In this document: positions 1 to 13,642 of the stretch, piece by piece
Position numbering within the stretch: position 1 is the stretch's first letter
How the letters are laid out: each line of letters opens with the position of its first letter
Source of the DNA: a virus
Lineage: Duplodnaviria > Heunggongvirae > Uroviricota > Caudoviricetes
Length of the DNA stretch: 14,744 nt
Direction: 5' to 3' (one strand)
IMG/VR virus record: IMGVR_UViG_2585427758_000010
Coordinates: 1 to 14,744 of that record
Translations under genes and position numbers: made by a program
Notes under the pieces: generated by a model
Databases searched by the model: none
Told to the model about the DNA's origin: nothing
The model's input: the letters and a program-made list of their open reading frames with translations, nothing else

Positions 1-896
1 CTTGCGCTGATTATCTGCTGCAGCATTTCTGCCGGTTTTTCGCACGGATGTTTCCCGGGATAGAACTGCACCGGTTTATGCGTCCACACATCGGTATACG
101 GCACCTGCACCGTCACGCCAAAATACCGCCGCAGATGTTTATATTCACTCAGCAGCTCCGCATACTGCCGGTTCAGTGAGGTATACGTATCCACCAGCTG
201 GTGGTGGAGCTTTTCCAGTTCACCACGCCGATGCTTCTCTTCTGCCACCCGGGCAAACAGCGCCTGTAATTTCAGATAATCGCTTTCATTCGGTAGCTGC
301 CACTGACTGGCACTGAACCAGTGCGACACCATGTTTTTCTTTCCTGTGGCATCTGCAATCTGTTTTGCCGTTATCCCCAAGGCCGCGCGCGCATCACGAA
401 AGTAAGAAATCAGCGGGGCCATCACATGCTGTTTCAGTGCACTGCCCTTCGCCGCATACCCGGCATCTTTCGGACGATACGGCCCCTGATAATGTTCCGC
501 GAACAGAATGCGCTCTGTGGCGGGGAAATACGCCCGCAGGCTTTCCTTGTTGCACCCGTTCCAGCGTCCGGACGGCTTCGCCCAGATAATATGGTTCAGC
601 ACACTGAAGCGTTCACGCATCATGATTTCGATATCAGATGCCAGGCGATGACCACAGAACAGGTAAAGACTTCCGGCAGGTTTCAGCACCCGCCAGAACT
701 GCGCCAGACACTGGTCCAGCCATTTCAGGTAATCATCGTCGCCCTTCCACTGGTTATCCCAGCCCTCAGGCTTCACTTTAAAGTACGGCGGGTCCGTGAC
801 TATCAGGTCAACAGAATTTTCGGGTAACGACCGGATAAATTCCAGGCAGTCGGCGTTGATTAACTCACAACTGGATATTTTTACAGTATTAAGCAT
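1..896 (-). CDS. DNA amino-methyltransferase, beta-class (N6-adenine or N4-cytosine); 3' end lies beyond the window start
   Basis: Minus-strand reading frame from ATG at 894-896 runs off the window start with no stop, which is why it is absent from the ORF track. My translation starts MLNTVKISSCELINADCLEFIRSLPENSVDLIVTDPPYF and reaches ...FYPGKHPCEKPAEMLQQII near position 1. The DPPY motif is N-terminal and an HPxxKP motif sits where it precedes the SAM-binding FxGxG in this class; the FxGxG itself would be outside the window. The listed + ORF 321..827 is its antisense shadow. Confidence 0.8.
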   Translation of the reverse strand, partial: MLNTVKISSCELINADCLEFIRSLPENSVDLIVTDPPYFKVKPEGWDNQWKGDDDYLKWLDQCLAQFWRVLKPAGSLYLFCGHRLASDIEIMMRERFSVLNHIIWAKPSGRWNGCNKESLRAYFPATERILFAEHYQGPYRPKDAGYAAKGSALKQHVMAPLISYFRDARAALGITAKQIADATGKKNMVSHWFSASQWQLPNESDYLKLQALFARVAEEKHRRGELEKLHHQLVDTYTSLNRQYAELLSEYKHLRRYFGVTVQVPYTDVWTHKPVQFYPGKHPCEKPAEMLQQIISA

Positions 897-1030
897 GGAT
901 CATTAAGCCTGTCTCTGATAGGCTCATTCTGCTTTTGCGCAAAGCAGTGGGCCTGAGGTTTGCTTGTGAACCCAACGCATGAGCAGATGGCTGGTGGGTG
1001 CCCCTAACACCCACCAGCCGCCCATTTACC

Positions 1031-1060
1031 ACAAATAAAAAAGCCTTCACTGCGGAAGGC
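1031..1060 (-). terminator. Candidate intrinsic terminator (minus strand)
   Basis: Read on the minus strand: GCCTTC-CGCAGT-GAAGGC hairpin (plus 1043-1060) followed immediately by TTTTTTATTTGT (plus 1031-1042). It overlaps the stop codon of the small ORF 1047..1244. Confidence 0.5.
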
Positions 1061-1244
1061 GTCTGTAACAACCGAACTGATAGTCTGCCAGACCCGCCAT
1101 AACCAGCTGAGTCAGTATTAACTGGCAGCGTTCGCGTGAAAGGTAAGTATTCTGCGCAATCTCCCCGACTGTCGCCGGTTCGGTGACGCTTAATTCATTA
1201 AACACCACTCTGGCGGTTTCTGTCATATCCTGCTGTTTTAGCAT
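1047..1244 (-). CDS. Hypothetical small protein (65 aa)
   Basis: ATG at 1242-1244 inside the longer track ORF 1047..1331, whose first codon is GTG. Product MLKQQDMTETARVVFNELSVTEPATVGEIAQNTYLSRERCQLILTQLVMAGLADYQFGCYRRLPQ. Upstream AAGGG is only a weak Shine-Dalgarno. No family recognised. Confidence 0.4.
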   Translation of the reverse strand: MLKQQDMTETARVVFNELSVTEPATVGEIAQNTYLSRERCQLILTQLVMAGLADYQFGCYRRLPQ

Positions 1245-1364
1245 GTCTTTTTCCCTTTTCCGGTTAACGTGACACACCAATAACTCTTGTCGAAAAAGCC
1301 AGCAAGCTGAAAGACAGGTATTCACCGCCACCAGCGCGTTTACTGTACTGACGCGATTTCAGTC

Positions 1365-1388
1365 ATAAAAAACCCGCCAGGCGGCGGG
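1365..1388 (-). terminator. Candidate intrinsic terminator about 80-105 nt downstream of the Q-like gene (tR'-like position)
   Basis: Minus-strand read: CCCGCC-GCCT-GGCGGG stem-loop (plus 1373-1388) followed by TTTTTTAT (plus 1365-1372). Confidence 0.5.
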
Positions 1389-1470
1389 GTGTAAAAAATC
1401 TTCTAACGTCAGGCATAAAACGCCTATCGTTAGAGCAAATTTACCACAGATTCGGGAAAAATCAACAACA

Positions 1471-2292
1471 CTATCGCGTTACCCTCTTTAACTGCCGCTC
1501 CGCCCATGCCTCTTCAATGTCAAACCGAACCACCAACGTATCGTAAAAGCGTTTCACTGATTTTTTCCACGTATCAAGCGTGATAGCACTCGTCACTTTG
1601 CGTATGGCATTAAATGCCTCCGTTGATGGTAGTCTTTCACAGCCACGACCACCACAACGCTGGCAGTCTCTGATAACAGGCATACCACGTTTTACCGACT
1701 CTTCACGATGAATGGCAACACCACGCCCACGGCAGTCTTTACAGGCAGTGGAAATCTCCCCCTTCCCTTTACATTCAGGACAAGAAACTTTCACCACCTC
1801 CCGAATTTTTTTCCATTCTTCCCAGTAAGACGGATACACACCTTTCGTACACTTTGCCCATACTGGCGGCTTGCCATCCGGATACTGAACCTTGTTTGTA
1901 AAAACTTCGCCTTCAATAAATTTTTCCCCTCGGCAACAGGGGCACTGCTTTTTACTCGCTGCGCTGCGGGCATAATCCTCAAAAGCGTACGAAGCCATAA
2001 TGCGCATCACTACCGGTTTTATTTCTGCCGGAAGTTTTCTCAACGCCGCCACACGATCGCACCGACTGAGTGCATAATCTGCCAGTAATTCTGTTGCCCG
2101 CGCCCTGTCATTCATACTGATGCCCATTTTCCCCAGGAACGCAGAAAACCCCATCTCAGCCCGATTCTGTGTCATGCCCTGCGCGGCCATCACATCAGTG
2201 ATACTCAGCGCATCTTTCGACGTTGAGGCCGATGCATCAGTCAGGCCGGGGGATTTTGGGGAGTAGTATTTCGGTAAATCTTCCAGTTTCAT
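1471..2292 (-). CDS. Late-gene antitermination protein, lambda Q family, with an expanded Cys-rich zinc-binding insert
   Basis: 273-aa ORF. N-terminal YSPKSP...DVMAAQGM and C-terminal ...LKRVTR resemble lambda Q as I recall it (SPKSP...DVMAA...LNAVTR). Central region carries CPCCRGEK, CPECKGKG, CKDCRGRG and CQRCGGRG, i.e. CxxCxGxG repeats. Start ATG overlaps the rusA stop as ATGA at 2289-2292. Confidence 0.8.
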   Translation of the reverse strand: MKLEDLPKYYSPKSPGLTDASASTSKDALSITDVMAAQGMTQNRAEMGFSAFLGKMGISMNDRARATELLADYALSRCDRVAALRKLPAEIKPVVMRIMASYAFEDYARSAASKKQCPCCRGEKFIEGEVFTNKVQYPDGKPPVWAKCTKGVYPSYWEEWKKIREVVKVSCPECKGKGEISTACKDCRGRGVAIHREESVKRGMPVIRDCQRCGGRGCERLPSTEAFNAIRKVTSAITLDTWKKSVKRFYDTLVVRFDIEEAWAERQLKRVTR

Positions 2293-2669
2293 TTTTTGAC
2301 CTGCTCTTCATGCATTATGGGGTAAATCTTCACCCCCAGACGTCCACCAGATACTGGCTGACCACGAACGATATTGATTTCATCAAACTGCTCATCGTCC
2401 ATTAGCAACCCCGCATGCGTCAGCGCATCCAGCGGCGCTTTCAGAATATTGTCCAGATCACGGCGGCGCTTATCCGGTGGTTCTGCAATAATTTTTATTG
2501 CCAACCTTCCGGACAGGCTTAATTTCAGCCGCTGCTGGCGAACAATAAGCGCCACTGCCCGGCGATAACGCTCCCCGGCTTTTGATACAAAATATGTGCT
2601 GCCACGACGACGCCAGTAAGTGTTCACCGTTGGCGGGTAAGGCAAAACAAATTCTATGCGTTCAGTCAT
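2289..2669 (-). CDS. rusA: Holliday junction resolvase RusA
   Basis: 126-aa ORF with the RusA hallmark acidic cluster ...PPDKRRRDLDNILKAPLDAL... and DDEQ, the right size for the family. Start abuts the stop of the upstream DUF968 gene (2667-2669 and 2670-2672). Confidence 0.9.
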   Translation of the reverse strand: MTERIEFVLPYPPTVNTYWRRRGSTYFVSKAGERYRRAVALIVRQQRLKLSLSGRLAIKIIAEPPDKRRRDLDNILKAPLDALTHAGLLMDDEQFDEINIVRGQPVSGGRLGVKIYPIMHEEQVKK

Positions 2670-3728
2670 TTATGCTTTCCACTTCAGAACACCCGAATTT
2701 CTCGCGTGCATTAAAAAACGAATCAGCAACAACAGCTGGCTGCCGTGTTTTTCTTCAAAATCTTTTACCCCGGCGTGTAGTTCGCTATGGCATTTACGGC
2801 ACAGCGGAATAACAAACAAATCATCAGCCTTTGTTCCCATCCCTCCCAGTCCATGACCAATGATGTGATGCGGATCATCTGCCTGATTGCCACACGTCAT
2901 GCATTTCTGCGTTTTTACCCAGCGCGTGTATACAGGCATCTCTTCCCGTTGTGATTTCTGGCGCTGGAGATACTGAGCCGGTGACTCGGGATCAACGGCA
3001 ATGCTGACCACCGTCTTTTCCTGTGGTGGGTTCTGTTGCTGGTGGGCGTGAGGCAGCGGCGCAAGATTTTTTGTGCGCTGTTTCAGTATGCTGGTGGCGG
3101 TCTGCTCTCCCGGTATGATGTCGCTTTCACTGTACACAGAGCGAATTTTTTCCGCACGCAACCCCAGCGAACGACGTAATACCGCTTCCGGTAGCGCGTC
3201 CGCCACCTGATTGCGGACCGCCCACCAGGATAATTCAGCCAGAGATAATTCACGCTCCTGCGTACCGCTTATTGCGTGACCGATGACGTCAATCATCCAT
3301 GCTGACAGGTTTTGATGAGCAAGTTGCCCGAGTGATTCGGATGTCTGGTCACGCAGCTGGTTGTCGCAGTGCCAGCACAACACCATTGCGCCGGTACCAT
3401 AACGGTGAATGACGGTTTCGCTGTGATGATAATCGCCGTGTGGCCACTGGCAGGATTTAATATGGCGCAACAGCCAGTCAGACAATGCACCAGCACCACC
3501 AGCAGCACGAATCACCCGTGCGTTACTGAAAAACGGCAGCAATGTTTTGTCTTCCACCAGCGGCTGGCGAGCGGCAGGAACGACCCCGGACGGCAGATTA
3601 CGCATGCTTTTTGGTTCCGGCTCCACCAGTATTCTGCCGTTATGGAATGCTGACATTGATTCACGGCCTGGCTTAACGATAACCAGACCGAGTTCCGGTA
3701 CCAGAACAGATCGAAGTAATACCCGCAC
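2670..3728 (-). CDS. DUF968 / YdfU-like prophage protein with a C-terminal HNH-type zinc-finger motif
   Basis: 352-aa ORF. C-terminal CMTCGN...DPHHIIGHGLGG...LCRKCHSELH is an HNH-like CxxC...HH...CxxC-H arrangement. Position immediately upstream of rusA and Q matches the lambdoid nin region. Confidence 0.8.
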   Translation of the reverse strand: MRVLLRSVLVPELGLVIVKPGRESMSAFHNGRILVEPEPKSMRNLPSGVVPAARQPLVEDKTLLPFFSNARVIRAAGGAGALSDWLLRHIKSCQWPHGDYHHSETVIHRYGTGAMVLCWHCDNQLRDQTSESLGQLAHQNLSAWMIDVIGHAISGTQERELSLAELSWWAVRNQVADALPEAVLRRSLGLRAEKIRSVYSESDIIPGEQTATSILKQRTKNLAPLPHAHQQQNPPQEKTVVSIAVDPESPAQYLQRQKSQREEMPVYTRWVKTQKCMTCGNQADDPHHIIGHGLGGMGTKADDLFVIPLCRKCHSELHAGVKDFEEKHGSQLLLLIRFLMHARNSGVLKWKA

Positions 3729-3729
3729 A

Positions 3730-4008
3730 TTACCTCCAGATCCGTTGCTGGAATGTGCGGGACGGACGCGCTGGCCGTTCTGAGTAAGGGAGCCTGACGG
3801 AGATTATCCAGTGACGGTAGTCGAGGCTAAGGGCTTTTTTAACCTCGCATCCGCGCCCGCGGTAACACTGAATGAGCCATTCAGCCTGTTCTTCGGTGCA
3901 GGGGTCGTGCTGATACCAGTCAGATTTGAATGCATGAGAACGCCGCCCGTGCCTGCTGGCAGGGGCGGCAGAGTTATCCGAATTGTAAAATTTGGTATCG
4001 TGCGCCAT
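3730..4008 (-). CDS. Hypothetical protein (92 aa); possibly the 3' remnant of a gene truncated by the adjacent AT-rich insertion
   Basis: ORF with phage-like GC content and a weak RBS. The frame stays open for 28 codons upstream of the ATG to a stop at 4096-4098, exactly where composition switches to AT-rich, with no alternative start. Confidence 0.45.
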   Translation of the reverse strand: MAHDTKFYNSDNSAAPASRHGRRSHAFKSDWYQHDPCTEEQAEWLIQCYRGRGCEVKKALSLDYRHWIISVRLPYSERPARPSRTFQQRIWR

Positions 4009-4275
4009 CTGTTTTCTCTGCTGGCGCAGCAGGTGCCAGTTGTTCAGGCTGACGTATGAAGTATAAATAAACTGGCTCCAGTGTAAAGCCCCACCTTAAT
4101 GGAATAAAAACCAAACAACAGATTGCTGGGATAAAAATACAACGCTTATTATTAAAAGCGGTTAGATAAATTAAATTTTAATGTTATGCAAATCTGCCAG
4201 ATTAGCATAATATTTCATTTGAAAACCGCTGAAATAACAATCTTATCGGGATTAATCATATTAAGGTGAGTAAAT

Positions 4276-4362
4276 ATGGAAAACAACAAATCTGCACATT
4301 ACGCTCCTTTTTTATCTGTAATACTTTTTGTATTTTGTTGTGTATGGGCGGTATTTTTATAA
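4276..4362 (+). CDS. Small hydrophobic peptide (28 aa), candidate membrane peptide
   Basis: AAGGTGAG Shine-Dalgarno 5 nt upstream of ATG 4276. Product MENNKSAHYAPFLSVILFVFCCVWAVFL is a polar N-terminus plus one predicted transmembrane helix. Stop TAA at 4360-4362 is followed by the hairpin at 4378-4407. Below the 60-aa threshold of the ORF track. Confidence 0.35.
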   Translation: MENNKSAHYAPFLSVILFVFCCVWAVFL

Positions 4363-4377
4363 AACACACCCACAAAT

Positions 4378-4407
4378 AAATCAAACCCGCTACAGCGGGT
4401 TTGATTT
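4378..4407. terminator. Bidirectional intrinsic terminator between convergent genes
   Basis: Perfect inverted repeat AAATCAAACCCGCT-AC-AGCGGGTTTGATTT with a GC core and T-rich flanks on both strands. It lies 16 nt after the small + ORF and 10 nt after the stop of the minus-strand protease gene. Confidence 0.6.
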
Positions 4408-4416
4408 ATATAGTTG

Positions 4417-6681
4417 TTATACGGAAACTGGCACACGAGCAGGCAATGGATAGTGAGCCCAGTTATTAGCATTTAAAGCTCTTACGCCATCAGCATAAAC
4501 TTGTGTGTTTCCATCTAATGATTTTAAAGTTACTACAATAGTTACAGGTAAAGGCTCCATTAAGGCCGGTTCATTCGCTCTCAACGTTGTTTTAGCTTGA
4601 AGAGCCCAGTTACCCGAAGTAATTCCTTTATTAAATGCCTTGCGATGAATTTTTACTGGTGACCACTTTCCACCATGCTCAATTTGAGCTCTCTCATATC
4701 CAGATTGACCGTTTTCTCCTTCCATAGGTACTTTTCCTTTTATAGTATTATTCTCAATTAAGCCAAAACTTAGCTCTACGTTCGCGCGAACATATTCACT
4801 GCCGGCATTAGGGTTCAGTGGTGGTGCATATGCAGCAGTAATTACAATCTCACCTTTAAATTTTCCATTTTGAATAAGTGCCGATGGTATGGGATAGTTT
4901 TCCTTTCTCCACCTCACCCCAGGAACCAAGAATGTTTGGAAAATCAGAGTAAACCTATCATCACTATCATATAAGGTCTCAATAACCTCATTAGGAATTC
5001 CCGCTCCCAAATAGCGTCTTTCACTTGGCGAGTAATCAGGAGAAGATAATTGAGCGGAATGAATTAATAATGCTTTAATCAATGATGGTGAAACATTAAA
5101 GTCTGAATTAGTGGCTATTCTCTGCCATGTATGCGCAGCTAAACTTGCCACAATTGGAGCAGCAAAACTAGTACCAAAATTAGAGCAAAGCCTATTATCT
5201 GGCCCTACGACCTTTAAACTGCTTGCTCCTACATTCCAAGGTCTATGAACCCCACCGCCAGCATGGATTATATCTGGCTTTGGAGTAAATACAGGCCCAG
5301 GGCCACGACGAGTATATGGTGTCGGTGTTCCAATTTCACTTAAAGCATCATTAGCTTCCATATGAGAAACTGAACCAACTGTTAGTGCTCGGACTGACTC
5401 TCCAGGAGAGGAAATTAAATCAGCACCTCCAAGCGGATCAGGATTTGGCCATGTACGTATAGGTTCATCTACATAATTACCTGCAGCAACTACAAACAAA
5501 ATACCAAATTTATCGCTGAGCCGATCTAACTCCATCGCAAAATCACTAAACATCTGCTCATTACATGGTCCGCCTCCCAAAGATAAATTCCAGACTTTTA
5601 TATCTGGTCTTTTATTTACAGCATCTGCTAGCCTCAGAATTAAATCTGATATATAAGATCCATTTTCATCTAAAGCACAAACATCATGGATTTTAGATTT
5701 TGTATCAGGAATCCATGGATGATTGTCATTTAAAAAATGAGCGCCTGATATCAATGAAGACACCATAGTCCCATGTTCATAACTCGTATCAGGAGGAATT
5801 ACGTATGTTTCCCTACTCACTACCCAAGGAGTAATTGTTGCCGCGATGGGGCTTACCCCAGTGTCAAATACAGCAACAATGGGTAATTCTTCTGATGGTA
5901 CGGGAAAGCTATTTGTTTCAATGCCAACAGAATCACTTACACTAACCGGGAATGCTGAATATTTTGGTTCTGGAATTAACGTTCTTATACCCGGGTAATC
6001 AATGAGAATGTCTAATATATATCTATCATTTGGGGATAAATCCATTATCCTTAATAAGGGAAGACCACATTTTGGTCTAATCTCATCATATTTAACTCCG
6101 TGTTGTTCTAATATAGAAATAACGTTTTCATAGTTGTTGTAAGTTGCATCTTCACCTGTGTACTCAAATAGTCGTACAAGGATGTTTGATGATTCAAACA
6201 AACCATCAGTGCCTCCTGGAACCTTCCTATTCTCATCCCAAGGTTCAATGCGCTCAATCGCGCTTAGGTTAGCCAAAATCGCTTTAATATTCCGATGTAA
6301 AATGACTGACTCTAATACGTCAAAACAGCCGGCATGAGCAGCAACCAACATTTCATCTATTTTGGCATGACCGGCATTTTGCAATCCAGCCTCTTGAGCA
6401 ATTTTGTTCGGCCTATGCGTTTTGGCTATTCCCTGGTCTCTTAATTTGAAAACCAAAGTACCCAAGCTTCCAGGGTACTCTGAAAGTTTGGATTCTAAAT
6501 AATGTTTACTGGTTGTTAAATTTCTTACTAGCCCTTGTCTATATTCGGCTGTTACATCAACCAATACCTTTGCCCCACCGCCAGCGTTTACTATTGCACC
6601 CAAGTCACTACTGGAAAAAGGGATTCTTAACATTGGGTTTGTAACTTTTGCGTTACTAAACTGTGTACCCCTTCTGCTCAT
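4417..6681 (-). CDS. Subtilisin-like serine protease (peptidase S8 family), IetS-like
   Basis: 754-aa ORF with the S8 catalytic motifs in canonical order: Asp in VAVFDTGV, His in HGTMVSSLISG, oxyanion Asn in VVAAGNY, Ser in GTSFAAP. About 270 aa precede and about 200 aa follow the catalytic domain. AGGAG lies 3 nt before the ATG. The 5' end overlaps the upstream ATPase gene by 26 bp. Confidence 0.9.
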   Translation of the reverse strand: MSRRGTQFSNAKVTNPMLRIPFSSSDLGAIVNAGGGAKVLVDVTAEYRQGLVRNLTTSKHYLESKLSEYPGSLGTLVFKLRDQGIAKTHRPNKIAQEAGLQNAGHAKIDEMLVAAHAGCFDVLESVILHRNIKAILANLSAIERIEPWDENRKVPGGTDGLFESSNILVRLFEYTGEDATYNNYENVISILEQHGVKYDEIRPKCGLPLLRIMDLSPNDRYILDILIDYPGIRTLIPEPKYSAFPVSVSDSVGIETNSFPVPSEELPIVAVFDTGVSPIAATITPWVVSRETYVIPPDTSYEHGTMVSSLISGAHFLNDNHPWIPDTKSKIHDVCALDENGSYISDLILRLADAVNKRPDIKVWNLSLGGGPCNEQMFSDFAMELDRLSDKFGILFVVAAGNYVDEPIRTWPNPDPLGGADLISSPGESVRALTVGSVSHMEANDALSEIGTPTPYTRRGPGPVFTPKPDIIHAGGGVHRPWNVGASSLKVVGPDNRLCSNFGTSFAAPIVASLAAHTWQRIATNSDFNVSPSLIKALLIHSAQLSSPDYSPSERRYLGAGIPNEVIETLYDSDDRFTLIFQTFLVPGVRWRKENYPIPSALIQNGKFKGEIVITAAYAPPLNPNAGSEYVRANVELSFGLIENNTIKGKVPMEGENGQSGYERAQIEHGGKWSPVKIHRKAFNKGITSGNWALQAKTTLRANEPALMEPLPVTIVVTLKSLDGNTQVYADGVRALNANNWAHYPLPARVPVSV

Positions 6682-7810
6682 ATGCTCCTGACTCCTTCAG
6701 AATGTTTGAAATTACTCTTGATGTAAGTTTGTACAAATTAGCAAGAACTCTGATAGAAAATAATTTTTTATCTTTAGAACGTAACCAACGAATTTCATCT
6801 TCGTAAGTGCTTAAATTTACACCTTCCATAAGCGATTGCGCAAGATACAAACGCCTATACAATTTATGGTGATTTATCACACTTGCACCTTCAATAACTG
6901 CATCCCTACGTGCATCCAAGCTCACCTGTTCAATTATTGCTCCGGATAATCCCTCCGATTTTCTTGATAAATCACTTAAATCTAGATCGCTACATATCAT
7001 ATTCTTTAAACGATTTTTCCAAATTAACTCTCTCTGATGTATGTCAGGCAGAGGCATTGGAATTCTGAAGCTAAATCGCCTCCAGATTGCAGGATCCAGA
7101 AGTTGCTCATGGTTAGTTGAGGCAATAATTACCGTATCCTCTGATGCCGCATCCATATTCTGCAATAGTGAAATGACAACTCGCTGAAGCTCACCTATAT
7201 CTCTCTCATTACCTCTTGCTCCAGCTAAAGCATCAAATTCGTCTAAAAAAAGCACTGATGGCCTCTGCATTACATAATCGAAAACCTGTCTAAGATTTTT
7301 GCTGGTTTGTCCCAATAAACTACTAATCAAAGTATCGCAACGCACTGTAAGAAGTGGAAAATCTAAGCGGGTAGCGATGTACTTAGATAACATAGTCTTA
7401 CCTGTTCCTGGCTTTCCATACACGAGCATACGACTCGGCAATGCTGCATCAGCTTTAACAAACTCATCATAACGTTGAACATTAGTGATAAACTCTTCAA
7501 CACGGGTACTGATTGCTGCAGGCAGAAAAATCTCTGAACTGTCTAATTTAGGATAACTGACATCAACAGTGTTGAGTCGACTATCAATATCTACCGGTAA
7601 TGAGCCCAGAGATATCCCACCTCCAGCCCTTTGAGCTCCTGCCAACGCCTGGGGAGCTCTAAGCAACCTTTCTCTTATCATTCTGGCTTGCTTGACCTCC
7701 CCTTTTTGTTCGAGCTTATCTGCCAGCAACCCAGCATAATTACTAGCCATCGAAGCATTTGCCTTTGTTGCACCTTCAATGATTTTTAACACTTCTGATA
7801 AATAATCCAT
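6656..7810 (-). CDS. AAA+ ATPase, IetA-like
   Basis: 384-aa ORF. Walker A GKPGTGKT, Walker B VLFLDEFD, sensor-1 and arginine-finger region ...IIASTNHEQLLDPAIWRRF, so classic-clade AAA with an N-terminal domain of about 125 aa. GGGAG RBS 6 nt before the ATG. AT-rich codon usage, unlike the flanking phage genes. Confidence 0.9.
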   Translation of the reverse strand: MDYLSEVLKIIEGATKANASMASNYAGLLADKLEQKGEVKQARMIRERLLRAPQALAGAQRAGGGISLGSLPVDIDSRLNTVDVSYPKLDSSEIFLPAAISTRVEEFITNVQRYDEFVKADAALPSRMLVYGKPGTGKTMLSKYIATRLDFPLLTVRCDTLISSLLGQTSKNLRQVFDYVMQRPSVLFLDEFDALAGARGNERDIGELQRVVISLLQNMDAASEDTVIIASTNHEQLLDPAIWRRFSFRIPMPLPDIHQRELIWKNRLKNMICSDLDLSDLSRKSEGLSGAIIEQVSLDARRDAVIEGASVINHHKLYRRLYLAQSLMEGVNLSTYEDEIRWLRSKDKKLFSIRVLANLYKLTSRVISNILKESGAYEQKGYTV

Positions 7811-8003
7811 TCAACACTCCCACAACAAAAAGCCACAGCAATCAAAAAATGAGCACACAGAATCAAAATACTCTCTAATCGTAACGCATTTTGAGATTTT
7901 TGATACGTTTTTTTGGGATTATGTAACGCCAAATGGTCATTTTGTGTCAGAAAAATAAATCTTAGTACCGAGAATATGTAGCTTCCATCCTTCATCGTTC
8001 TAT

Positions 8004-8435
8004 TCATCCCTGATCTCCAAGCCTCTCTCGAAAACCATTCTGATAAAACGCCAGCACACGCTGCATAACTTCGCTCTTCCGGCACTCGCGACAGATTATG
8101 TTCAGACGCCTGTCGTAGCGGCGTATTTCTCCGTCTGGTAATGACCAGATAAGGTCCGGATCAACCACAGATGGTTTCTTCACCTTTGCCCTGGATAGTT
8201 TTTTGCGGGCATTTTGCCAGTCCTTACGAGCCTGTTCAGACGGGAATAACCCGTAACCAGAGTTGTATACATCGCCACTGGCAACCAGCTCTCTGGCGAG
8301 AACGCTCATCAGATATCTTGTCGCACCTGTCTTGGCTTCCAGTTGCCGTAACGTCTCGCGCCCACTCCGGCGTACTAGCTCAACAACCTGCCCTTTAATT
8401 TTTTCCCGCTCTTCTTGTGTAAATACTTTTGCCAT
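8004..8435 (-). CDS. Hypothetical prophage protein (143 aa)
   Basis: ATG at 8433-8435 preceded by GGAGG at 5-nt spacing; the track ORF 8004..8450 begins at an upstream TTG. Product MAKVFTQEEREKIKGQVVELVRR... with a CRECRK motif. No family assigned. Confidence 0.7.
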   Translation of the reverse strand: MAKVFTQEEREKIKGQVVELVRRSGRETLRQLEAKTGATRYLMSVLARELVASGDVYNSGYGLFPSEQARKDWQNARKKLSRAKVKKPSVVDPDLIWSLPDGEIRRYDRRLNIICRECRKSEVMQRVLAFYQNGFRERLGDQG

Positions 8436-8450
8436 AAGCGCCTCCGGCAA

Positions 8451-9212
8451 TCACTTTTCCGATACAACACGGCGGGAAGAATCAGTAATCTGTCGAACAA
8501 TATCCCGGTGCTTGTTCAGCTCCCGCAGCGCGGCGCAGACTCGCTCCCACTTCTGGACATGATTTTTCGCCCGACGCAGTTCGCGGTTTGCCATATGCAG
8601 TGATGGTAAAACCAGGTCATCCGCTCGCGTTTCAGTAAACGATGGCAGCGACTGCACAATGTCCGCCACAGTTTCTGTTTTAATATCTTCCTGTGTTGCA
8701 GCCTCCTGTACTGGTAACGCAACACCTGCGGTATGAGGAAAGGCCTTACCATCAGTTTCCGCTACCGATGCTGCTTTCGGCTCTGCTGGTAAATTATCGC
8801 CCGGTATGCAGTAACGAAATTTACCGCCCTGATTTACGCGAATCAGACGACCTTTGCTGATTGCCATTGCCAGCGTTGAAGCCACTTTGCGTGATGTGGT
8901 ACCAAACAATGTAGCCAGCTCATCAGCCATTTGTGGTCCTCGTTGTTCAATCGTCGCGGTTAAATCGCACTCTGAGATTTTCGCTACTGTTGCTGTGGTG
9001 ATTTCTTCCGGCAGTTCTGCCTGCGCTGGCTGTTCCTGCTGAACGTTGTTATCAGCCACACGCCAGGTGTACGCGCTTTTATCAACAAAACCAGCCTTTT
9101 TCAGTTCCCATAGTTCGTTCAGCACTTCTTCACGACTGATATCAAGTCGCGCAGCAAGTTCTATGGATGTGGCTTTTCCCATTGCTTTCAGTGCGTCAAA
9201 AACAGTCTCCAT
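8451..9212 (-). CDS. Hypothetical protein with an N-terminal winged-helix-like segment (253 aa; alternative start at 9263 gives 270 aa)
   Basis: ORF with [43 protein letters not shown]... at the N-terminus. GGGAG lies 9 nt upstream of ATG 9210-9212. The in-frame ATG at 9263 would overlap the DnaC-like gene by 29 nt. Confidence 0.65.
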
Positions 9213-9234
9213 TAAATTTTTCTCCCGGTAAAAA

Positions 9235-9981
9235 TTACTTCGCAATTCCTGGCTGGACGACATTCGGACGCCAGCTCTCCCAGTTAAAATTCACCCATAG
9301 CCCGCCGTTCATGGTCATGCGATCCATAATCCGCTCGCCGAGCAATGTTTTCATGGCCTCATAGTTCAGGTTTGTCAGCATCCCCACGCTGCGCATCGAC
9401 GCTGTCCGGCGATCAACAATCTGGTGCAGTACCACCTGCTCGTTTTTCGTCTCGCGCTGAATGCCAATTTCATCAAGAACCAGCAGATCCACTTCGCACA
9501 GTTCCCGCAAAAATTTTTCGCCTGACTGCCCATCGTCATAGCTGGCGTGGAGGGCACTCATAACATCAGCCACGGTAACCACAATCACTGTCTGACCGTC
9601 TTTCAGCAGGCGATTCCCGATAGCTGCTGCTAAGTGGTTCTTCCCGGTACCAGGTTTTCCGCTAAACGCGAAATTTGTGCATCCGGTCATCAGTTCATCA
9701 GCGATAGATTTCGCCTGGCTCAACGCGTATCGCTGACCGTCGTTCTGCACCTGGTAATTCGCAAACGAGCATTTACGGTGCAACGGCTGGATGCCTGAGC
9801 GATTCAGAATTTTTTCCACCCGCAACTGGCGATTCAGGCGGTTGATCTCCTCGCTACGTTTCTGGCCTTCAGCAAGTTGCCACTCGTGCCACTCCGCTAC
9901 CGTTCTGAATGGGGCGGTTACATGTGGCGGAGCCAGTCTTCGGATACGTTCAAGAACGCCGCCTGCCGCAATGTTTTTCAT
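9235..9981 (-). CDS. DnaC-like replicative helicase loader (IstB/DnaC ATPase family), lambda P analogue
   Basis: 248-aa ORF with Walker [16 protein letters not shown], Walker B LLVLDEIG, and size and position typical of prophage DnaC homologues such as Rac YdaV. Confidence 0.9.
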
Positions 9982-9987
9982 GACACG

Positions 9988-10950
9988 TCACCCCCTGAAT
10001 CCCGGCGGTATTTCAGTGTCCGGTTCAGAAATGTGATTCACGCAACGCTGCGCAGGCAAACGCCCCAGGCGGATAACCAGTTCATCCCATTTTTCCCGGA
10101 GTTTTGCCGGACTCATGATGTTTTTTACCCAGAACGAATCCCGCTGGAGACGCCCAAACATTTCACAAATTTGTCTGTGAGTTCTGCCATCCAGCATCCG
10201 CATTGTGCGAACGTCATTGGCCCATGCTGTCCAGTTGGGTTCTTTCGGTCTAGTGATCTCGCCATCATAGCTGGCCGCCTGCTCGTAAAGACTCACGATT
10301 CGTCCCCAGATCCACTGTGCGCACACCAAATCTTCCTGACTTCCCCACTGGCGTTTTTTCGCACTGAACACAACCGCGTCAGGGTGTCGGGTTAAAAAAT
10401 CCTGTTCAGCCGTCTGCGGGTCCGGTTGCGAAGCGTCCGGACAAGAAGATCTTTTATCTGACGGATCAGGTTTTAATACTGACGGATCGGGGTCAATCAT
10501 CGGCCCCCTAATCGGCAGTTTTTTATCAACAGTTGATCCATCAAAATTTGACGGGTCAACCGTTGAGGGGTCAATATTTGACGGGTCAACTGTTAACGGG
10601 TCATTTTTTGCCGGGCTAATTTTTCTTTTCGGTTTATATGACTCACGCGCCGCCGCCGCAGCTGCTTCGAGTTTTTCCACATTAAGCCGATAGATATTGC
10701 TTACATTACGCCCACCGACCTTACGCTCTTCCTTCGTCAGCCAGCCCTCTTTCGCCAGTTCTGCAATAGCCGATTTCACTGTGGATTCACTTCTTGCACC
10801 GATCTGACGCCGGATAGTTTCAATGGCAGGCCATGACACGCCCTCGTCATTGCTGTAGTCTGCAAGACGGGCCATAACCGCCACCCTGGATAAGATCATG
10901 CCGGTGAAGGCGCACCCTTCCCAGACAAGACCATGAAGCTTGCTGCTCAT
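9988..10950 (-). CDS. Replication initiator / replisome organiser (lambda O-like or YdaU-like), containing the putative origin
   Basis: N-terminal winged-helix-like segment (...WPAIETIRRQIGARSESTVKSAIAELAKEGWL...), a central repeat-encoded linker (DPLTVDPSNIDPSTVDPSNFDGSTVD) and a C-terminal domain. ATG at 10948-10950 is preceded by a G-rich RBS; the track ORF starts at an upstream GTG (10965). Confidence 0.8.
   Translation of the reverse strand: MSSKLHGLVWEGCAFTGMILSRVAVMARLADYSNDEGVSWPAIETIRRQIGARSESTVKSAIAELAKEGWLTKEERKVGGRNVSNIYRLNVEKLEAAAAAARESYKPKRKISPAKNDPLTVDPSNIDPSTVDPSNFDGSTVDKKLPIRGPMIDPDPSVLKPDPSDKRSSCPDASQPDPQTAEQDFLTRHPDAVVFSAKKRQWGSQEDLVCAQWIWGRIVSLYEQAASYDGEITRPKEPNWTAWANDVRTMRMLDGRTHRQICEMFGRLQRDSFWVKNIMSPAKLREKWDELVIRLGRLPAQRCVNHISEPDTEIPPGFRG
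10527..10643. repeat. Iteron-like array plus adjacent AT-rich tract: putative phage origin of replication inside the initiator gene
   Basis: Five tandem units of about 15 bp, each a TTGA-N4-TCAA dyad: agTTGAtccaTCAAaa, atTTGAcgggTCAAc, cgTTGAggggTCAAt, atTTGAcgggTCAAc, tgTTAAcgggTCATt. The 15-mer ATTTGACGGGTCAAC is identical at 10546-10560 and 10576-10590. Followed by TTTTTTGCCGGGCTAATTTTTCTTTTCGGTTTATAT. Lambda ori has the same layout inside gene O. Confidence 0.5.
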
Positions 10951-10972
10951 AAACCCCCCGAACACCGTGCTT

Positions 10973-11398
10973 TTAGTGCATCACCACAGCATTCCCTGCC
11001 GGGCCGCCGCGATTCATCTGGTCATACAAAACAACCGCTGACGCAACAAAATCATCGACATCCTTCACCAGCCGATCCCTCCGTTCGACGATCTCACGGT
11101 AATATTCAGAACTGTGGCTGCGCATACGGGCCACCAGCAAAGGCGGCATCGCCTTTTCGATCGCCGGTAACAGAGCCTGCATTTTTTCAACAGCATCAGG
11201 GGTGTCTTTATCCAGCCAACGGAAAATTTTCTGGGTATTACGGGCCAGGGCTTCCGGATGGCTGTCGTCATACAGTTCCGGGAACGTCATTCCCAGCTCG
11301 AAATACGCTTTGGTAATTTTCGCAGCCGGCACTTTTTCGCCGTCCGGATGCGCCCAGACATTCATCGCCATGCGGATGTGTTCATGCTTGATTTTCAT
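10973..11398 (-). CDS. YdaT-like protein (cII-position gene of Rac-type immunity regions)
   Basis: 141-aa ORF directly downstream of the Cro-like gene, with AGGAG 9 nt before the ATG. N-terminus MKIKHEHI... Assigned by synteny with the Rac racR/ydaS/ydaT arrangement. Confidence 0.7.
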   Translation of the reverse strand: MKIKHEHIRMAMNVWAHPDGEKVPAAKITKAYFELGMTFPELYDDSHPEALARNTQKIFRWLDKDTPDAVEKMQALLPAIEKAMPPLLVARMRSHSSEYYREIVERRDRLVKDVDDFVASAVVLYDQMNRGGPAGNAVVMH

Positions 11399-11663
11399 GA
11401 ATCAAGCTCCTAGAAAGTGGTTGTGTTAACGTTTTGGTATCTTCCAGCTCGGGCCAAATATTCATCCAATCAAAAGGCCTTAGTTGCTGACGTGTAACTT
11501 CACCATTACTGGCTCGCTCAATAAGGACACATAACGATGCCCCTAACACTTGACCTTTACTCAATGCCTTTCTTAGATAACCGATGCTGGTACCACACTC
11601 GCATGCAAACATACGCTGTTCATCTGACGAAAGAGAATTGAGAAATATTCTTAATTCTTCCAT
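11382..11663 (-). CDS. Cro-like HTH protein of the YdaS family, first gene of the PR-like operon
   Basis: 93-aa ORF with a perfect AAGGAG SD 5 nt before the ATG. HTH region ...CGTSIGYLRKALSKGQ... and the motif LIERASNGEVTRQQLRPFDW that I associate with YdaS-type proteins. Divergent from the repressor gene. Confidence 0.8.
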   Translation of the reverse strand: MEELRIFLNSLSSDEQRMFACECGTSIGYLRKALSKGQVLGASLCVLIERASNGEVTRQQLRPFDWMNIWPELEDTKTLTQPLSRSLIHENQA

Positions 11664-11689
11664 AGCTACTCCTTAGTAAACACAGCAAA

Positions 11690-11735
11690 GAATACCCACA
11701 GGTAAACAAAAGTCAATACCCACAGGTTGTTTACC
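11690..11735. promoter_or_regulatory. OR-like operator/promoter region between divergent Cro-like and repressor genes
   Basis: Direct repeat AATACCCACAGGT at 11690-11702 and 11714-11726, each holding the dyad-ended 12-mer TACCCACAGGTA, plus inverted GGTAAACAA / TTGTTTACC. On the minus strand a TTGACT -35 and a TATTCT -10 at 16-nt spacing overlap these repeats. On the plus strand TATTAT lies 6 nt before the repressor ATG with no SD. Confidence 0.5.
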
Positions 11736-11763
11736 TTGCGGTAATCGCATCTATTATTTACCT

Positions 11764-12183
11764 ATGGACAAATATGAATTTAGACGACAGCAACTCATCA
11801 AAATTCGTGATGAGAAATGCGATGGTAAAGCGGTTAACGTGGCCAGAAAGATCGGGCGCGAGCCTTCTTATGTATCAAGAATGTTGTACCCAGAGGGGAA
11901 AAAGGGAAAAAAACGGATCGCTGATGATATGGTGGAGATTATCGAAGAGTCCTTTGGGTTACCCCGGGGATGGATGGATGGTATCGTTTCATCATCAACG
12001 AACACAGCCTCCAGTTATGAAACAAGGGTTCTAACGCCACGACAACGTATTTTTTTAGATCTCTTAGACGAACTGCCAGAAAGTGAAGCGGATAAATTAT
12101 TAAAAACTCTTGAAGAGAAAAAACAGTATTACAATATGATCTACGAAGAAATCCGTAAAAAGAAAGCACAAAACGCATCATAG
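11764..12183 (+). CDS. Prophage repressor, RacR/DicA-like (cI analogue, XRE-type HTH)
   Basis: 139-aa ORF with HTH ...KAVNVARKIGREPSYVSRML... and a C-terminal LDELPESEADKLLKTLEE segment reminiscent of DicA-type repressors. Divergent from the Cro-like gene, and no SD before the ATG. Confidence 0.8.
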   Translation: MDKYEFRRQQLIKIRDEKCDGKAVNVARKIGREPSYVSRMLYPEGKKGKKRIADDMVEIIEESFGLPRGWMDGIVSSSTNTASSYETRVLTPRQRIFLDLLDELPESEADKLLKTLEEKKQYYNMIYEEIRKKKAQNAS

Positions 12184-12225
12184 CTCACCAAACAACTAGT
12201 CACCAGTTAAGACACCGCAAAAATT

Positions 12226-12262
12226 TACCCATGGGTATTTACTTTTTAAATACCTATGGGTA
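12226..12262. promoter_or_regulatory. OL-like operator pair and probable PL-like promoter
   Basis: Perfect palindrome TACCCATGGGTA at 12226-12237 and near-copy TACCTATGGGTA at 12251-12262. Together they form a 35-bp near-perfect inverted repeat ACCCATGGGTATTTA-CTTTT-TAAATACCTATGGGT. Same TACC...GGTA core as the OR repeats. Possible -35 TTTACC and -10 TAAATA at 17-nt spacing. Confidence 0.45.
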
Positions 12263-12448
12263 TCCTTCTTTTCATACCAACCCACCCCGCCCCACAGAAT
12301 GCAGGGCAATACTTCGAGTTACCAGGCAGTGGTCAGGGGTTAAGTAGCCAGCCCGAGGCGTAAGAACATGACGGCAGGGTTCAACTTTAATAACTATGCA
12401 GCAGGTTTTTGTTCCGCTACCCCGGCGTTAAGGGGAAATGAGGTCAAC

Positions 12449-12601
12449 ATGGATATGCTCAATCTTGGCAACAACGAATCTCTGGTATGTGGCGTGTTCC
12501 CCAACCAGGACGGCACGTTTACCGCGATGACGTATACCAGAAGCAAAACGTTTAAAACTGAAGCTGGCGCGCGTCGCTGGTTAACCAGAAACACTGACTG
12601 A
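12449..12601 (+). CDS. Small protein (50 aa), YdfA/YdaF-like by position
   Basis: ATG 12449 preceded by GAGGT at 4-nt spacing. Product MDMLNLGNNESLVCGVFPNQDGTFTAMTYTRSKTFKTEAGARRWLTRNTD. It is the first gene after the repressor, as ydfA is in Qin and ydaF in Rac. The longer track ORF from 12368 has no RBS. Confidence 0.55.
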   Translation: MDMLNLGNNESLVCGVFPNQDGTFTAMTYTRSKTFKTEAGARRWLTRNTD

Positions 12602-12612
12602 TGAGGTTGACG

Positions 12613-13014
12613 ATGGAATTTAAAGATTTACCAGTACCATTCCAGGAAATGGCATCGAATGTGGTTCGCTCTCAACTGGCGACTCTTGACCTGAGTACCG
12701 TAGAAAAAGAAACCATCGATACTATATCCGGTAACGTGCGTCGTGCCTTTATAGGTCTGTATGAAGAGAAGCGCCTATTCGGCGGACAGAATTCGCCTGA
12801 AAACAAGAATCAAGCAAATGATGAGAAGCTGAAACACATTATCGCCTTACTTTTGGAAGACGCAAAACGTCTACAGCAACTGGAACCAAATGCAGGCACA
12901 GAGGCCCGCATTTGGATTGCCATGAAATCACTCAAATGTGAAAGCAGTGATTATTTCAAAACAACAATTAAAACTACTCAACTTTCGGGAGAGCTACTGA
13001 AGAAATTGCCATAA
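12613..13014 (+). CDS. Hypothetical protein (133 aa), no recognisable domain
   Basis: ATG 12613 preceded by GAGG at 6-nt spacing; the ATG at 12601 overlaps the upstream stop and lacks an SD. Lys/Glu-rich, AT-richer than neighbours. Its 3' end overlaps the convergent minus-strand gene by 41 bp. Confidence 0.55.
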   Translation: MEFKDLPVPFQEMASNVVRSQLATLDLSTVEKETIDTISGNVRRAFIGLYEEKRLFGGQNSPENKNQANDEKLKHIIALLLEDAKRLQQLEPNAGTEARIWIAMKSLKCESSDYFKTTIKTTQLSGELLKKLP

Positions 13015-13252
13015 GAGCATGGTCTTTCTCTTGTTCTGCAAGATGAGCATTAATACCTGGTATGGTTTTTTCAAATTTATCTATCTGTTGAATAACAACT
13101 TCGCGGTATACGTTTGTTTTTGTACCACCAAGCGCAGCCGTTAATGCAGAAAGCATATTTAGTATCATATCAGTGCGATATGAAAGAATCCTGATAGCTT
13201 CATCTTGTTTTTCAATAATAGATTGCAGGGCCTCAATTTGCTTTTTATCCAT
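12974..13252 (-). CDS. Hypothetical protein (92 aa), probably coiled-coil, convergent with the 133-aa gene
   Basis: Strong AGGAGG SD 6 nt upstream of ATG 13250-13252. Product MDKKQIEALQSIIEKQDEAIRILSYRTDMILNMLSALTAALGG.... The longer track ORF to 13291 starts at a non-RBS Met. Confidence 0.55.
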   Translation of the reverse strand: MDKKQIEALQSIIEKQDEAIRILSYRTDMILNMLSALTAALGGTKTNVYREVVIQQIDKFEKTIPGINAHLAEQEKDHALMAISSVALPKVE

Positions 13253-13584: not shown

Positions 13585-13642
13585 TTTCTGGTGACGTTTG
13601 GCGGTATCAGTTTTACTCCGTGACTGCTCTGCCGCCCTTTTT
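13585..13642 (+). ncRNA. dicF: DicF small regulatory RNA (Hfq-dependent sRNA of the dicB operon)
   Basis: TTTCTGGTGACGTTTGGCGGTATCAGTTTTACTCCGTGACTGCTCTGCCGCCCTTTTT matches my recollection of the 53-nt DicF RNA and ends in a GC-rich element plus T5. It sits about 170 nt upstream of dicB, the position it has in Qin. Identity is from memory, not a search. Confidence 0.6.

What the first reader, a model, noticed from the sequence alone, without database searches (positions are those of the whole stretch)
4060..8003. AT-rich cassette of about 4 kb inserted into the nin region, with a possible truncated gene at its edge
Base composition drops sharply between roughly 4060 and 8000 compared with the flanking phage genes, which is what a horizontally acquired moron looks like. 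On the low-coordinate side the 92-aa ORF 3730..4008 has an open frame that continues 28 codons upstream of its ATG to a stop at 4096-4098, right at the composition switch, consistent with a longer gene cut by the insertion. The 190-bp AT-rich interval 7811-8003 upstream of the ATPase gene probably holds the cassette's own promoter.
Basis: partly seen in the sequence, partly recalled or inferred. Interest (0 to 1): 0.55.

Follow-up and report, generated by a model that had tools for sequence, protein, structure and literature searches.

The report
Known IetAS anti-phage cassette in prophage
The AT-rich block is a real, foreign piece of DNA, but it is the already-described two-gene IetAS anti-phage defence system (an ATPase plus a subtilisin-like protease) sitting in a cargo slot of an E. 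coli lambda-like prophage, and the neighbouring 92-aa gene is intact, not truncated.

Summary
The GC drop is real: 0.390 for 4060-8003 against 0.517 on both sides, and GC3 of 0.27-0.33 against 0.44-0.62. The block holds ietA (6656-7810) and ietS (4417-6681), both on the minus strand. Both pass the PADLOC models and the curated NCBIfam cut-offs. RefSeq already annotates them as iteA/iteS in a 100%-identical E. coli prophage. This exact cassette is in 78 of 5,426 complete E. coli genomes.

The "truncated gene" reading is refuted. The 92-aa ORF has same-start homologues of 90-92 aa, including one in K-12 Qin.

The AT-rich block is two modules. One is an ietAS-specific segment (about 4402-8039). 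The other is a 376-bp spacer (4026-4401) shared with about 680 genomes that lack ietAS.

The gene altered at an edge is the DUF977 gene on the other side. Its last 9-11 codons change with each cargo.

No strong sigma-70 consensus lies in 7811-8003. However, a 30-nt element (7878-7907) is nearly invariant across diverged ietAS loci and occurs only upstream of ietA, so it probably marks the cassette's own promoter or operator.

Overall the finding is ordinary and already known.

The parts
6656..7810 (-). ietA (PGAP name iteA): a 384-aa AAA+ ATPase, the putative antitoxin/regulator. Walker A is GKPGTGKT at 132-139 and Walker B is VLFLDE at 186-191.
   Evidence: PADLOC IetA PDLC02196, E 8.9e-143, full length. 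NCBIfam NF042959 equivalog scores 526.6 bits against a cut-off of 510. Pfam AAA at residues 128-253. Motifs found. The closest solved relatives by sequence are the p97/CDC48 D2 domains.
4417..6681 (-). ietS (PGAP name iteS): a 754-aa S8 subtilisin-like peptidase, the putative toxin/effector. It overlaps ietA by 26 nt and has an AGGAG Shine-Dalgarno sequence just upstream of its ATG.
7878..7907 (-). 30-nt invariant cis-element, CGTATCAAAAATCTCAAAATGCGTTACGAT, ending 67 nt upstream of the ietA ATG. It is a candidate core promoter (GTATCA, 17-nt spacer, TACGAT) and/or an operator (imperfect inverted repeat CGTATC...GTTACG).
   Evidence: The element is 26-29/30 identical in loci whose ietA third-codon positions are only 44-64% identical. 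The exact degenerate pattern occurs 22 times in the viral contigs and 8 times in the metagenome contigs. All 30 occurrences lie directly upstream of ietA. Its function is inferred, not shown.
7811..7932 (-). ietA upstream region that travels with the cassette across genera. It is the regulatory region and 5' leader, with a GGGAG Shine-Dalgarno sequence at about 7819-7823.
   Evidence: DNA homology with the Citrobacter locus L007 runs 4417-7932. Homology with L027 and L029 runs up to 7915.
7933..8039 (-). Junction segment specific to the E. coli context. It includes the DUF977 stop codon and the variable tail of the DUF977 gene (8004-8039).
   Evidence: It is not shared with L007. Homology with prophages that lack ietAS resumes only at 8040, 8041 or 8056.
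8004..8435 (-). DUF977 / Ren-like gene (143 aa from ATG 8435). The last 9-11 codons (8004-8039) differ with each cargo, so the right-hand recombination junction lies inside the 3' end of this gene.
   Evidence: Pfam DUF977, E 2e-28. phrog_142, Ren-like exclusion protein. The protein alignment is conserved up to ...MQRVLAFYQ and then diverges. Gene coordinates follow the PGAP annotation.
4376..4409 (-). Intrinsic terminator of ietS: perfect 16-bp arms, a 2-nt gap between the arms, then a T-rich tail. Its core is AAACCCGC-loop-GCGGGTTT. This is also the left edge of the ietAS-specific DNA.
   Evidence: Predicted RNA fold energy is -26.1 kcal/mol, z -4.6. Also seen. The same hairpin core follows ietS in six diverged loci, 35-79 nt after the stop codon. 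A similar hairpin ends hokD in L005, and homology to L005 begins there, at 4401.
4026..4375 (-). AT-rich non-coding spacer (GC 0.34) that is not part of ietAS. It is a separate mosaic module found downstream of hokD in many prophages. It contains two further terminator-like hairpins and one promoter-like site matching 10 of 12 consensus positions (4087-4060).
   Evidence: About 680 E. coli genomes without ietAS share only this segment, at 85-93% identity. It precedes either the 92-aa gene or a DUF1367 gene. It has no credible ORF and no significant fold (z -1.85).
3730..4008 (-). Intact, conserved 92-aa phage gene of unknown function (phrog_1212). It always lies immediately upstream of the DUF968/Orf-HNH gene.
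   Evidence: Six-way alignment shows the same start and 78-90% identity. It is annotated at 279 nt in K-12 Qin, L003, L005 and L006. The PHROG core matches residues 27-92.

Best explanation
The low-GC block is a self-contained transcription unit. It consists of a conserved upstream element, ietA, ietS and a terminator, spanning about 7932 to 4376 on the minus strand. It encodes the known IetAS anti-phage defence / toxin-antitoxin system.

The unit is carried as cargo in the variable slot between the Ren-like DUF977 gene and the nin genes of a Rac/Qin-type lambdoid E. coli prophage. It reached that slot by recombinational module replacement, not by transposition. One crossover lay inside the 3' end of the DUF977 gene. 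The other lay at a terminator hairpin of the type that ends hokD, so the usual resident cargo plus hokD were displaced.

Likely mechanism, inferred from homologues:
- The S8 protease IetS is a cytoplasmic toxin/effector.
- The AAA+ ATPase IetA, translated from the same mRNA with a 26-nt overlap, keeps IetS harmless in the lysogen.
- Infection by another phage supplies a trigger protein that breaks this restraint.
- IetS proteolysis then stops the cell before the phage completes its cycle (abortive infection), which protects the lysogenic population and the prophage.

The identity and anatomy of the cassette are shown here. The toxin/antitoxin roles, the trigger and the abortive outcome are taken from work on homologues and are not shown for this locus.
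For: Identity:
- Both proteins give full-length PADLOC hits.
- Both exceed the curated NCBIfam equivalog cut-offs.
- RefSeq annotates a 100%-identical locus as iteA/iteS.

Intact chemistry:
- The catalytic residues D273, H303, N402 and S505 are invariant across 36 homologues.
- Walker A and B motifs are present.
- The model has a subtilase fold with a C-terminal beta-domain.

Foreign origin:
- GC and GC3 are well below the flanks.

Own transcription signals:
- The 30-nt element occurs only upstream of ietA and is more conserved than the coding DNA.
- The terminator is strong in the window and its hairpin core recurs downstream of ietS in six diverged loci.

Cargo slot:
- In relatives the same position holds hokD, rem, relBE/parDE, QueH, a hydrolase, DUF5677, Menshen NsnB/NsnC and PDC-S33.

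Mobility by recombination:
- The same cassette occurs in two E. coli prophage backbones that break at 4024-4026 and at 10024.
- It also follows a DUF977 gene in a Citrobacter prophage.
- No flanking repeats are present.

Function, from the literature:
- A Bacillus cereus ietAS acts by abortive infection and is triggered by phage SPbeta yosG (bioRxiv 10.1101/2022.08.27.505566).
- An E. coli ECOR52 ietAS was cloned and tested, and the system is described as prophage-located (10.1101/2022.08.21.504612).
- Protease activity is required for defence. Mutants of ietA could not be built, which fits an antitoxin role (PMC13069673).
- A Mycoplasma AAA-ATPase/subtilisin pair is a working toxin-antitoxin module (PMC8562856).
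Against: - No experiment on this exact locus was seen. ECOR52 ietAS alone gave only limited protection in the published panel.
[quoted passage not shown] The chain from restraint to trigger to proteolysis is therefore a model.
- No good sigma-70 consensus lies upstream of ietA. The best candidate whose hexamers are conserved scores 7/12. Expression in the lysogen is therefore not demonstrated.
- The crossover inside the terminator hairpin is inferred from where homology ends. This hairpin type is common in E. coli and could be shared by chance.
Confidence: 0.85

Rival explanations
1. The cassette serves mainly as an addiction (post-segregational killing) module that stabilises the prophage. 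In this view it functionally replaces the hokD type I toxin-antitoxin gene that normally occupies this slot, and phage defence is secondary.
For: IetAS was first described as a plasmid-stability toxin-antitoxin system on pTiC58 (Yamamoto 2009, as cited in PMC13069673 and PMC8562856). In nearly every relative examined the slot ends with hokD. The ietAS version lacks hokD and starts exactly at the position of the hokD-type terminator.
Against: Homologues defend against phages experimentally. Other occupants of the slot include true defence systems such as Menshen. The two roles are not mutually exclusive.
Confidence: 0.25
2. One reading: a 4-kb element was inserted into a longer ancestral gene, leaving the 92-aa ORF as its truncated remnant.
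For: The frame is open for 29 codons upstream of the ATG, up to a stop close to the composition switch.
Against: - Homologues have the same start and 90-92 aa in prophages with entirely different cargo, including K-12 Qin.
- The PHROG core is shorter than the ORF.
- The upstream open frame contains no start codon.
- That frame lies in a spacer that precedes a different gene in other phages.
- No insertion signatures are present.
Confidence: 0.02
3. The cassette is an inert or decaying passenger. It is silent in the lysogen because it lacks a promoter and is read only as part of the early-right transcript during lytic growth.
For: No consensus sigma-70 promoter lies in 7811-8003. The cassette has the same orientation as the replication and nin genes. 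One viral contig (L027) carries a truncated ietS.
Against: Both ORFs are intact with all catalytic residues. The cassette is at least 99% identical in 78 genomes. The upstream element is under stronger constraint than the synonymous sites. Cloned homologues were active from their native promoters.
Confidence: 0.1

Closest known systems
IetAS (PGAP IteA/IteS) anti-phage defence system; Gao et al. 2020; originally the pTiC58 IetA/IetS toxin-antitoxin pair, Yamamoto et al. 2009
   Same: It has the same two-gene operon, with the AAA+ ATPase upstream of the S8 peptidase. Both proteins match the family HMMs over their full length and above the curated cut-offs. The catalytic and ATPase motifs are intact.
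   Different: Nothing essential differs. This is the enterobacterial prophage-borne clade. The cis-elements described here (30-nt upstream element, conserved terminator core) were not mentioned in the passages of the ietAS papers I read.
ietHAS (Liu-DS4), the ietAS variant with an SNF2 helicase (PMC13069673)
   Same: It shares the IetA and IetS components and the requirement for protease activity.
   Different: No third gene is present here. The region upstream of ietA is a 193-nt non-coding interval, and the next gene upstream is the phage DUF977 gene.
Mycoplasma TA132/133 AAA-ATPase/subtilisin-like toxin-antitoxin module (PMC8562856)
   Same: It has the same gene order and domain pair. The ATPase is the antitoxin and the protease is the toxin.
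   Different: It is chromosomal in Mollicutes and has no shown role in phage defence. Its sequence relationship to this locus was not tested here.
Lambdoid morons and prophage defence hotspots (e.g. the P2/P4 hotspots, PMC9122126)
   Same: This is a variable cargo slot bounded by conserved phage genes. It holds alternative defence and toxin-antitoxin modules of atypical composition, each with its own terminator.
   Different: The phage type is different (Rac/Qin-like lambdoid). The slot lies between the Ren-like/DUF977 gene and the 92-aa/DUF968 or DUF1367 nin genes. The junctions lie inside a gene's 3' end and at a terminator.
hokD/sok-type type I toxin-antitoxin locus of the Qin prophage
   Same: It occupies the same slot in relatives. 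Its terminator hairpin and downstream spacer are homologous to 4026-4401 of the window.
   Different: hokD itself is absent from the window, and Rfam finds no Hok/Sok RNA there.

Membership tests
IetAS defence system | AAA+ ATPase IetA matching the family model over its full length | tested here: met
   PADLOC PDLC02196, E 8.9e-143, residues 1-374 of 384. NCBIfam NF042959 scores 526.6 bits against a cut-off of 510.
IetAS defence system | S8 subtilisin-like peptidase IetS matching the family model over its full length | tested here: met
   PADLOC PDLC02197, E 3.3e-300, residues 12-753. NCBIfam NF042956 scores 1041 bits against a cut-off of 900.
IetAS defence system | The two genes are adjacent, co-oriented and in the order ietA then ietS, forming one operon | tested here: met
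   ietA is 6656-7810 and ietS is 4417-6681, both on the minus strand, with a 26-nt overlap. One terminator follows ietS.
IetAS defence system | Intact Asp-His-Ser triad and Walker A/B motifs | tested here: met
   D273, H303 and S505 (plus N402) are invariant in 36 homologues. GKPGTGKT and VLFLDE are present.
IetAS defence system | Protects cells against phage; the protease is toxic and the ATPase neutralises it | not testable with these tools
   Known only from homologues.
Lambdoid moron | Base composition differs from the surrounding phage genes | tested here: met
   GC is 0.39 against 0.517, and GC3 is 0.27-0.33 against 0.44-0.62.
Lambdoid moron | Has its own terminator | tested here: met
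   The hairpin at 4376-4409 has z -4.6. It is conserved in six diverged loci. This is a prediction only.
Lambdoid moron | Has its own promoter and is expressed from the repressed prophage | tested here: inconclusive
   No sigma-70 match better than 8/12 was found. A cassette-specific 30-nt element at 7878-7907 is present and highly conserved. No expression data are available.
Transposon/IS-type insertion | Terminal inverted repeats, target-site duplication or a transposase gene | tested here: not met
   No repeats flank 4402/8039 or 4060/8003. No transposase gene lies among the ORFs.

The most novel reading that the evidence does not exclude
Two by-products might be new.

(1) The 30-nt element CGTATCAAnAAnnnnAnnATnCGTTACGAT occurs only upstream of this ietA clade and is more conserved than the genes themselves. 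It may be a dedicated operator or promoter through which ietAS is autoregulated, or is coupled to a host or phage signal.

(2) The interval bounded by the DUF977 3' tail and the hokD-type terminator may be an undescribed defence/toxin-antitoxin hotspot of Rac/Qin-type lambdoid prophages. Exchange there would be driven by short shared boundary sequences.
Probability: 0.35. Interest if true: 0.4.

Novelty: already known. Interest (0 to 1): 0.17.

Why it matters
The finding is mostly a clean negative. A striking composition island turns out to be a catalogued defence system that RefSeq already names, so it needs no discovery effort.

Its modest value lies in the anatomy:
- The exact mosaic junctions are defined. 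One lies inside the 3' end of the Ren-like gene and the other at a terminator.
- It shows that prophages swap defence and toxin-antitoxin cargo at this slot.
- It identifies a short cis-element exclusive to ietA. This gives an experimental handle on how ietAS, whose mechanism is still unknown, is expressed in lysogens.

Tried and rejected
- Motif scan error: the first collection scan for the upstream motif returned nothing because my pattern had one N too many. I corrected it against the window and repeated the scan.
- Rfam at a permissive threshold found nothing inside 4060-8003. It found only DicF and weak hits elsewhere.
- Repeat search found no flanking direct or inverted repeats, so a transposon-type insertion is rejected.
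- Folding the 368-nt spacer gave no significant structure (z -1.85), and ORFs of 20 aa or more there look spurious.
- The genome contigs protein scan found only one relative, in Citrobacter.
- A PDB sequence search found no solved IetA or IetS structure.
- The Gao 2020 and Yamamoto 2009 papers are not held in the library, so they are cited only through other papers and from general knowledge.
- An alternative -10 (TATTTT at 7865-7870) was considered and down-weighted. It becomes CATTTT in some E. coli copies and TATTAG in L059.
- I compared the conserved element from memory with the IHF, LexA, CRP and Fur consensus sequences and saw no match. No tool was run for this.
Full report
**1. Observation**

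The composition drop is real.
- GC is 0.390 for 4060-8003, against 0.517 for 1-4059 and 0.517 for 8040-11400. No other 3,944-nt window in the sequence is as low.
- Third-codon-position GC is 0.27 and 0.325 for the two large genes inside the block. It is 0.44-0.62 for eight flanking genes.
- ORF 3730..4008 (92 aa, minus strand) exists. Its frame stays open upstream to the stop at 4096-4098. That is 29 codons, with no ATG, GTG or TTG among them.
- The interval 7811-8003 is 193 nt at GC 0.347.

**2. What the window is**

All genes around the block are on the minus strand, in a lambdoid early-right layout. From high to low coordinates:

| Feature | Coordinates |
|---|---|
| O-like replication gene | 9988-10965 |
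| DnaC-like gene | 9235-9981 |
| DUF1627 gene | 8451-9212 |
| DUF977 (PHROG "Ren-like exclusion protein") | 8004-8435 |
| Low-GC block | see below |
| 92-aa gene | 3730-4008 |
| DUF968 / Orf-HNH gene | 2670-3728 |
| RusA gene | 2289-2669 |
| Antiterminator Q gene | 1471-2292 |

- Window 1-14462 is 99.99% identical to a prophage of E. coli strain 102651, NZ_CP189662.1.

**3. What the block encodes**

- ORF 6656-7810 (384 aa) is IetA. PADLOC gives E 8.9e-143 over the full length. The NCBIfam equivalog NF042959 scores 526.6 bits against a cut-off of 510.
- ORF 4417-6681 (754 aa) is IetS. PADLOC gives E 3.3e-300. NF042956 scores 1041 bits against a cut-off of 900.
- RefSeq already labels the identical genes "anti-phage ATPase IteA" and "S8 family anti-phage peptidase IteS".
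- IetA has Walker A (GKPGTGKT, 132-139) and Walker B (VLFLDE, 186-191) motifs. Its nearest solved relatives by sequence are the p97/CDC48 D2 domains.
- In IetS, D273, H303, N402 and S505 are invariant in an alignment of 36 homologues reaching down to 50% identity. The named sources of the family include Morganella, Klebsiella, Pseudomonas, Aeromonas, Ralstonia, Comamonas and Burkholderia.
- The genes overlap by 26 nt, and an AGGAG sequence lies just upstream of the ietS ATG. This suggests coupled translation.

**4. Distribution**

- The cassette is present at 99% identity or more in 78 of 5,426 complete E. coli genomes.
- It is also in one deposited phage, vB_EcoS-683R6.
- It is in no plasmid of PLSDB.

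**5. Boundaries**

The AT-rich block is two modules.

- Right side:
  - Homology with prophages that lack ietAS resumes at 8040, 8041 or 8056. That is inside the DUF977 gene, whose stop codon is at 8004.
  - DUF977 proteins are conserved up to ...MQRVLAFYQ and then carry a different tail of 5-11 residues in every cargo context.
- Left side:
  - Different relatives stop matching at 4025 (K-12 Qin) or at 4054-4067 (L003, L004, L006).
  - A hokD-carrying prophage (L005) keeps matching up to 4401, the foot of the ietS terminator hairpin.
  - About 680 E. coli genomes without ietAS share only 4060-4401.
- The ietAS-specific DNA is therefore about 4402-8039.
- The spacer:
  - Segment 4026-4401 is a separate AT-rich spacer. 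In relatives it lies downstream of hokD.
  - It precedes either the 92-aa gene or, in a second backbone, a DUF1367 gene.
  - A short linker, CAGCCTGAACAACTGGCAyCTGCTGC (about 4030-4056), is shared by both backbones.
- No direct or inverted repeats flank the block. The route was therefore recombinational replacement, not transposition.
- In the relatives examined the slot holds other cargo followed by hokD in nearly every case. The cargo includes rem, relBE/parDE, QueH, an alpha/beta hydrolase, DUF5677, a RelA/SpoT-domain protein that matches PADLOC candidate PDC-S33, and the Menshen genes NsnB/NsnC.

**6. The "truncated gene"**

This reading is refuted.
- Five homologues from prophages with unrelated cargo begin at the same Met-Ala. 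They are 90-92 aa long and 78-90% identical.
- The PHROG family core matches only residues 27-92.
- In L003 and L004 a terminator lies about 70 nt upstream of the ATG.
- The upstream open frame lies in the spacer described above, which elsewhere precedes a different gene.
- If any gene was altered at an edge, it is the DUF977 gene on the opposite side.

**7. Promoter question**

- The consensus scan finds no sigma-70-like site in 7811-8003. A relaxed scan gives nothing better than 8/12.
- Diverged ietAS loci from other prophages were compared: Citrobacter L007 with IetA 91% identical, L026/L027/L029 at 77-78%, and L059 at 85%. They share DNA homology with the window only from the ietS stop codon to 7915-7932.
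- Within that region a 30-nt element (7878-7907) is 26-29/30 identical. Third-codon positions of ietA are only 44-64% identical in the same loci.
- Its degenerate pattern occurs 22 times in 2.9 million viral contigs and 8 times in the metagenome collection. Every occurrence is directly upstream of ietA, 45-69 nt from the ATG.
- The only candidate hexamer pair that is invariant is GTATCA, 17 nt, TACGAT (7/12). The element can also be read as an imperfect inverted repeat, CGTATC...GTTACG.
- I conclude that the cassette carries its own cis-regulatory element, most likely a weak or regulated promoter with an operator. No expression data exist, so this remains inference.
- At the other end, a perfect 16-bp hairpin followed by a T-rich tail (4376-4409) has z -4.6. 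The same AAACCCGC-loop-GCGGGTTT core follows ietS in six diverged loci.

**8. Mechanism**

Shown here:
- a complete, apparently active ATPase-protease operon with its own terminator and a conserved upstream element;
- its location in a prophage cargo slot.

Taken from the literature on homologues:
- IetS is the toxin and IetA the antitoxin (Yamamoto 2009, cited via PMC13069673 and PMC8562856).
- Protease activity is needed for defence, and ietA mutants cannot be constructed.
- A Bacillus cereus ietAS acts by abortive infection and is triggered by phage SPbeta yosG.
- E. coli ietAS from ECOR52 was tested. It gives limited protection alone and synergy with Zorya II, and ietAS is given as an example of a system located in a prophage in E. 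coli.
- The molecular mechanism is stated to be unknown as of 2026.

My model is that IetA restrains IetS, a phage protein relieves the restraint, and proteolysis then aborts the infection. I rate the identity of the cassette at about 0.97 and the functional model at about 0.8.

A partly compatible rival is that the cassette mainly stabilises the prophage, in place of the displaced hokD.

**9. Verdict**

It is foreign cargo in the nin region, probably with its own control region.
- It is wrong about the truncated gene and imprecise about the boundaries.
- The object is already known and already annotated, so interest is low.
- The minor new points are the junction anatomy, the evidence for a cargo slot, and the 30-nt element exclusive to ietA.

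Noticed in passing
window 13586-13637 (+): DicF antisense sRNA, Rfam 76.7 bits against a gathering score of 48. It is followed by dicB (13812-14000) and ydfD. This marks the prophage as Qin/Rac-type.
   Followed up: partly
window 14463-14744: The window is 99.99% identical to strain 102651 up to 14462 and then stops matching. The break lies inside the large 3'-5' exonuclease-domain gene, so this is a further mosaic junction.
   Followed up: no
L009 4197-6340 (E. coli DH5alpha prophage); L061 2434-3459: The same slot upstream of hok holds Menshen genes in L009 (NsnC 1.1e-89, NsnB 8.9e-122, next to a DUF262 gene). In another strain (L061) it holds the PADLOC candidate PDC-S33 (a RelA/SpoT-domain protein). 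The slot is therefore a recurrent defence/toxin-antitoxin site.
   Followed up: partly
window 4026-4375 (-): The spacer shared with hok-bearing prophages contains two further terminator-like hairpins (4160-4143 and 4090-4074). It also contains a sigma-70-like site matching 10 of 12 consensus positions (4087-4060), just upstream of the 92-aa gene. It may act as a nin-type terminator/promoter region controlling read-through to Q.
   Followed up: no
window 4030-4056: A roughly 27-nt sequence, CAGCCTGAACAACTGGCAyCTGCTGC, is conserved upstream of two unrelated genes (the 92-aa gene and a DUF1367 gene) in different prophage backbones. It looks like a boundary/linker sequence that could guide module exchange.
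   Followed up: partly
L027 6130-7975 (IMGVR_UViG_2681813153_000003): In this viral contig ietS is cut to 339 aa. Homology to the window stops at 5707, and an opposite-strand 277-aa ORF follows. This could be an insertion or a deletion inactivating the protease.
   Followed up: no
window 7786-8085 (-): A 99-aa GTG ORF spans the end of the DUF977 gene and the start of ietA. A shorter ORF in the same stretch is annotated "kinase (fragment)" in phage ON470595. The DNA upstream of 7932 is not shared with the Citrobacter locus, so this ORF is probably spurious.
   Followed up: partly
window 11400-12400 and 12800-13200: There are two further low-GC islands (about 0.41 and 0.38) in the immunity-side region. 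They cover small genes of unknown function, including a 139-aa ORF and a DUF1391 gene.
   Followed up: no
[not shown]
   Followed up: no
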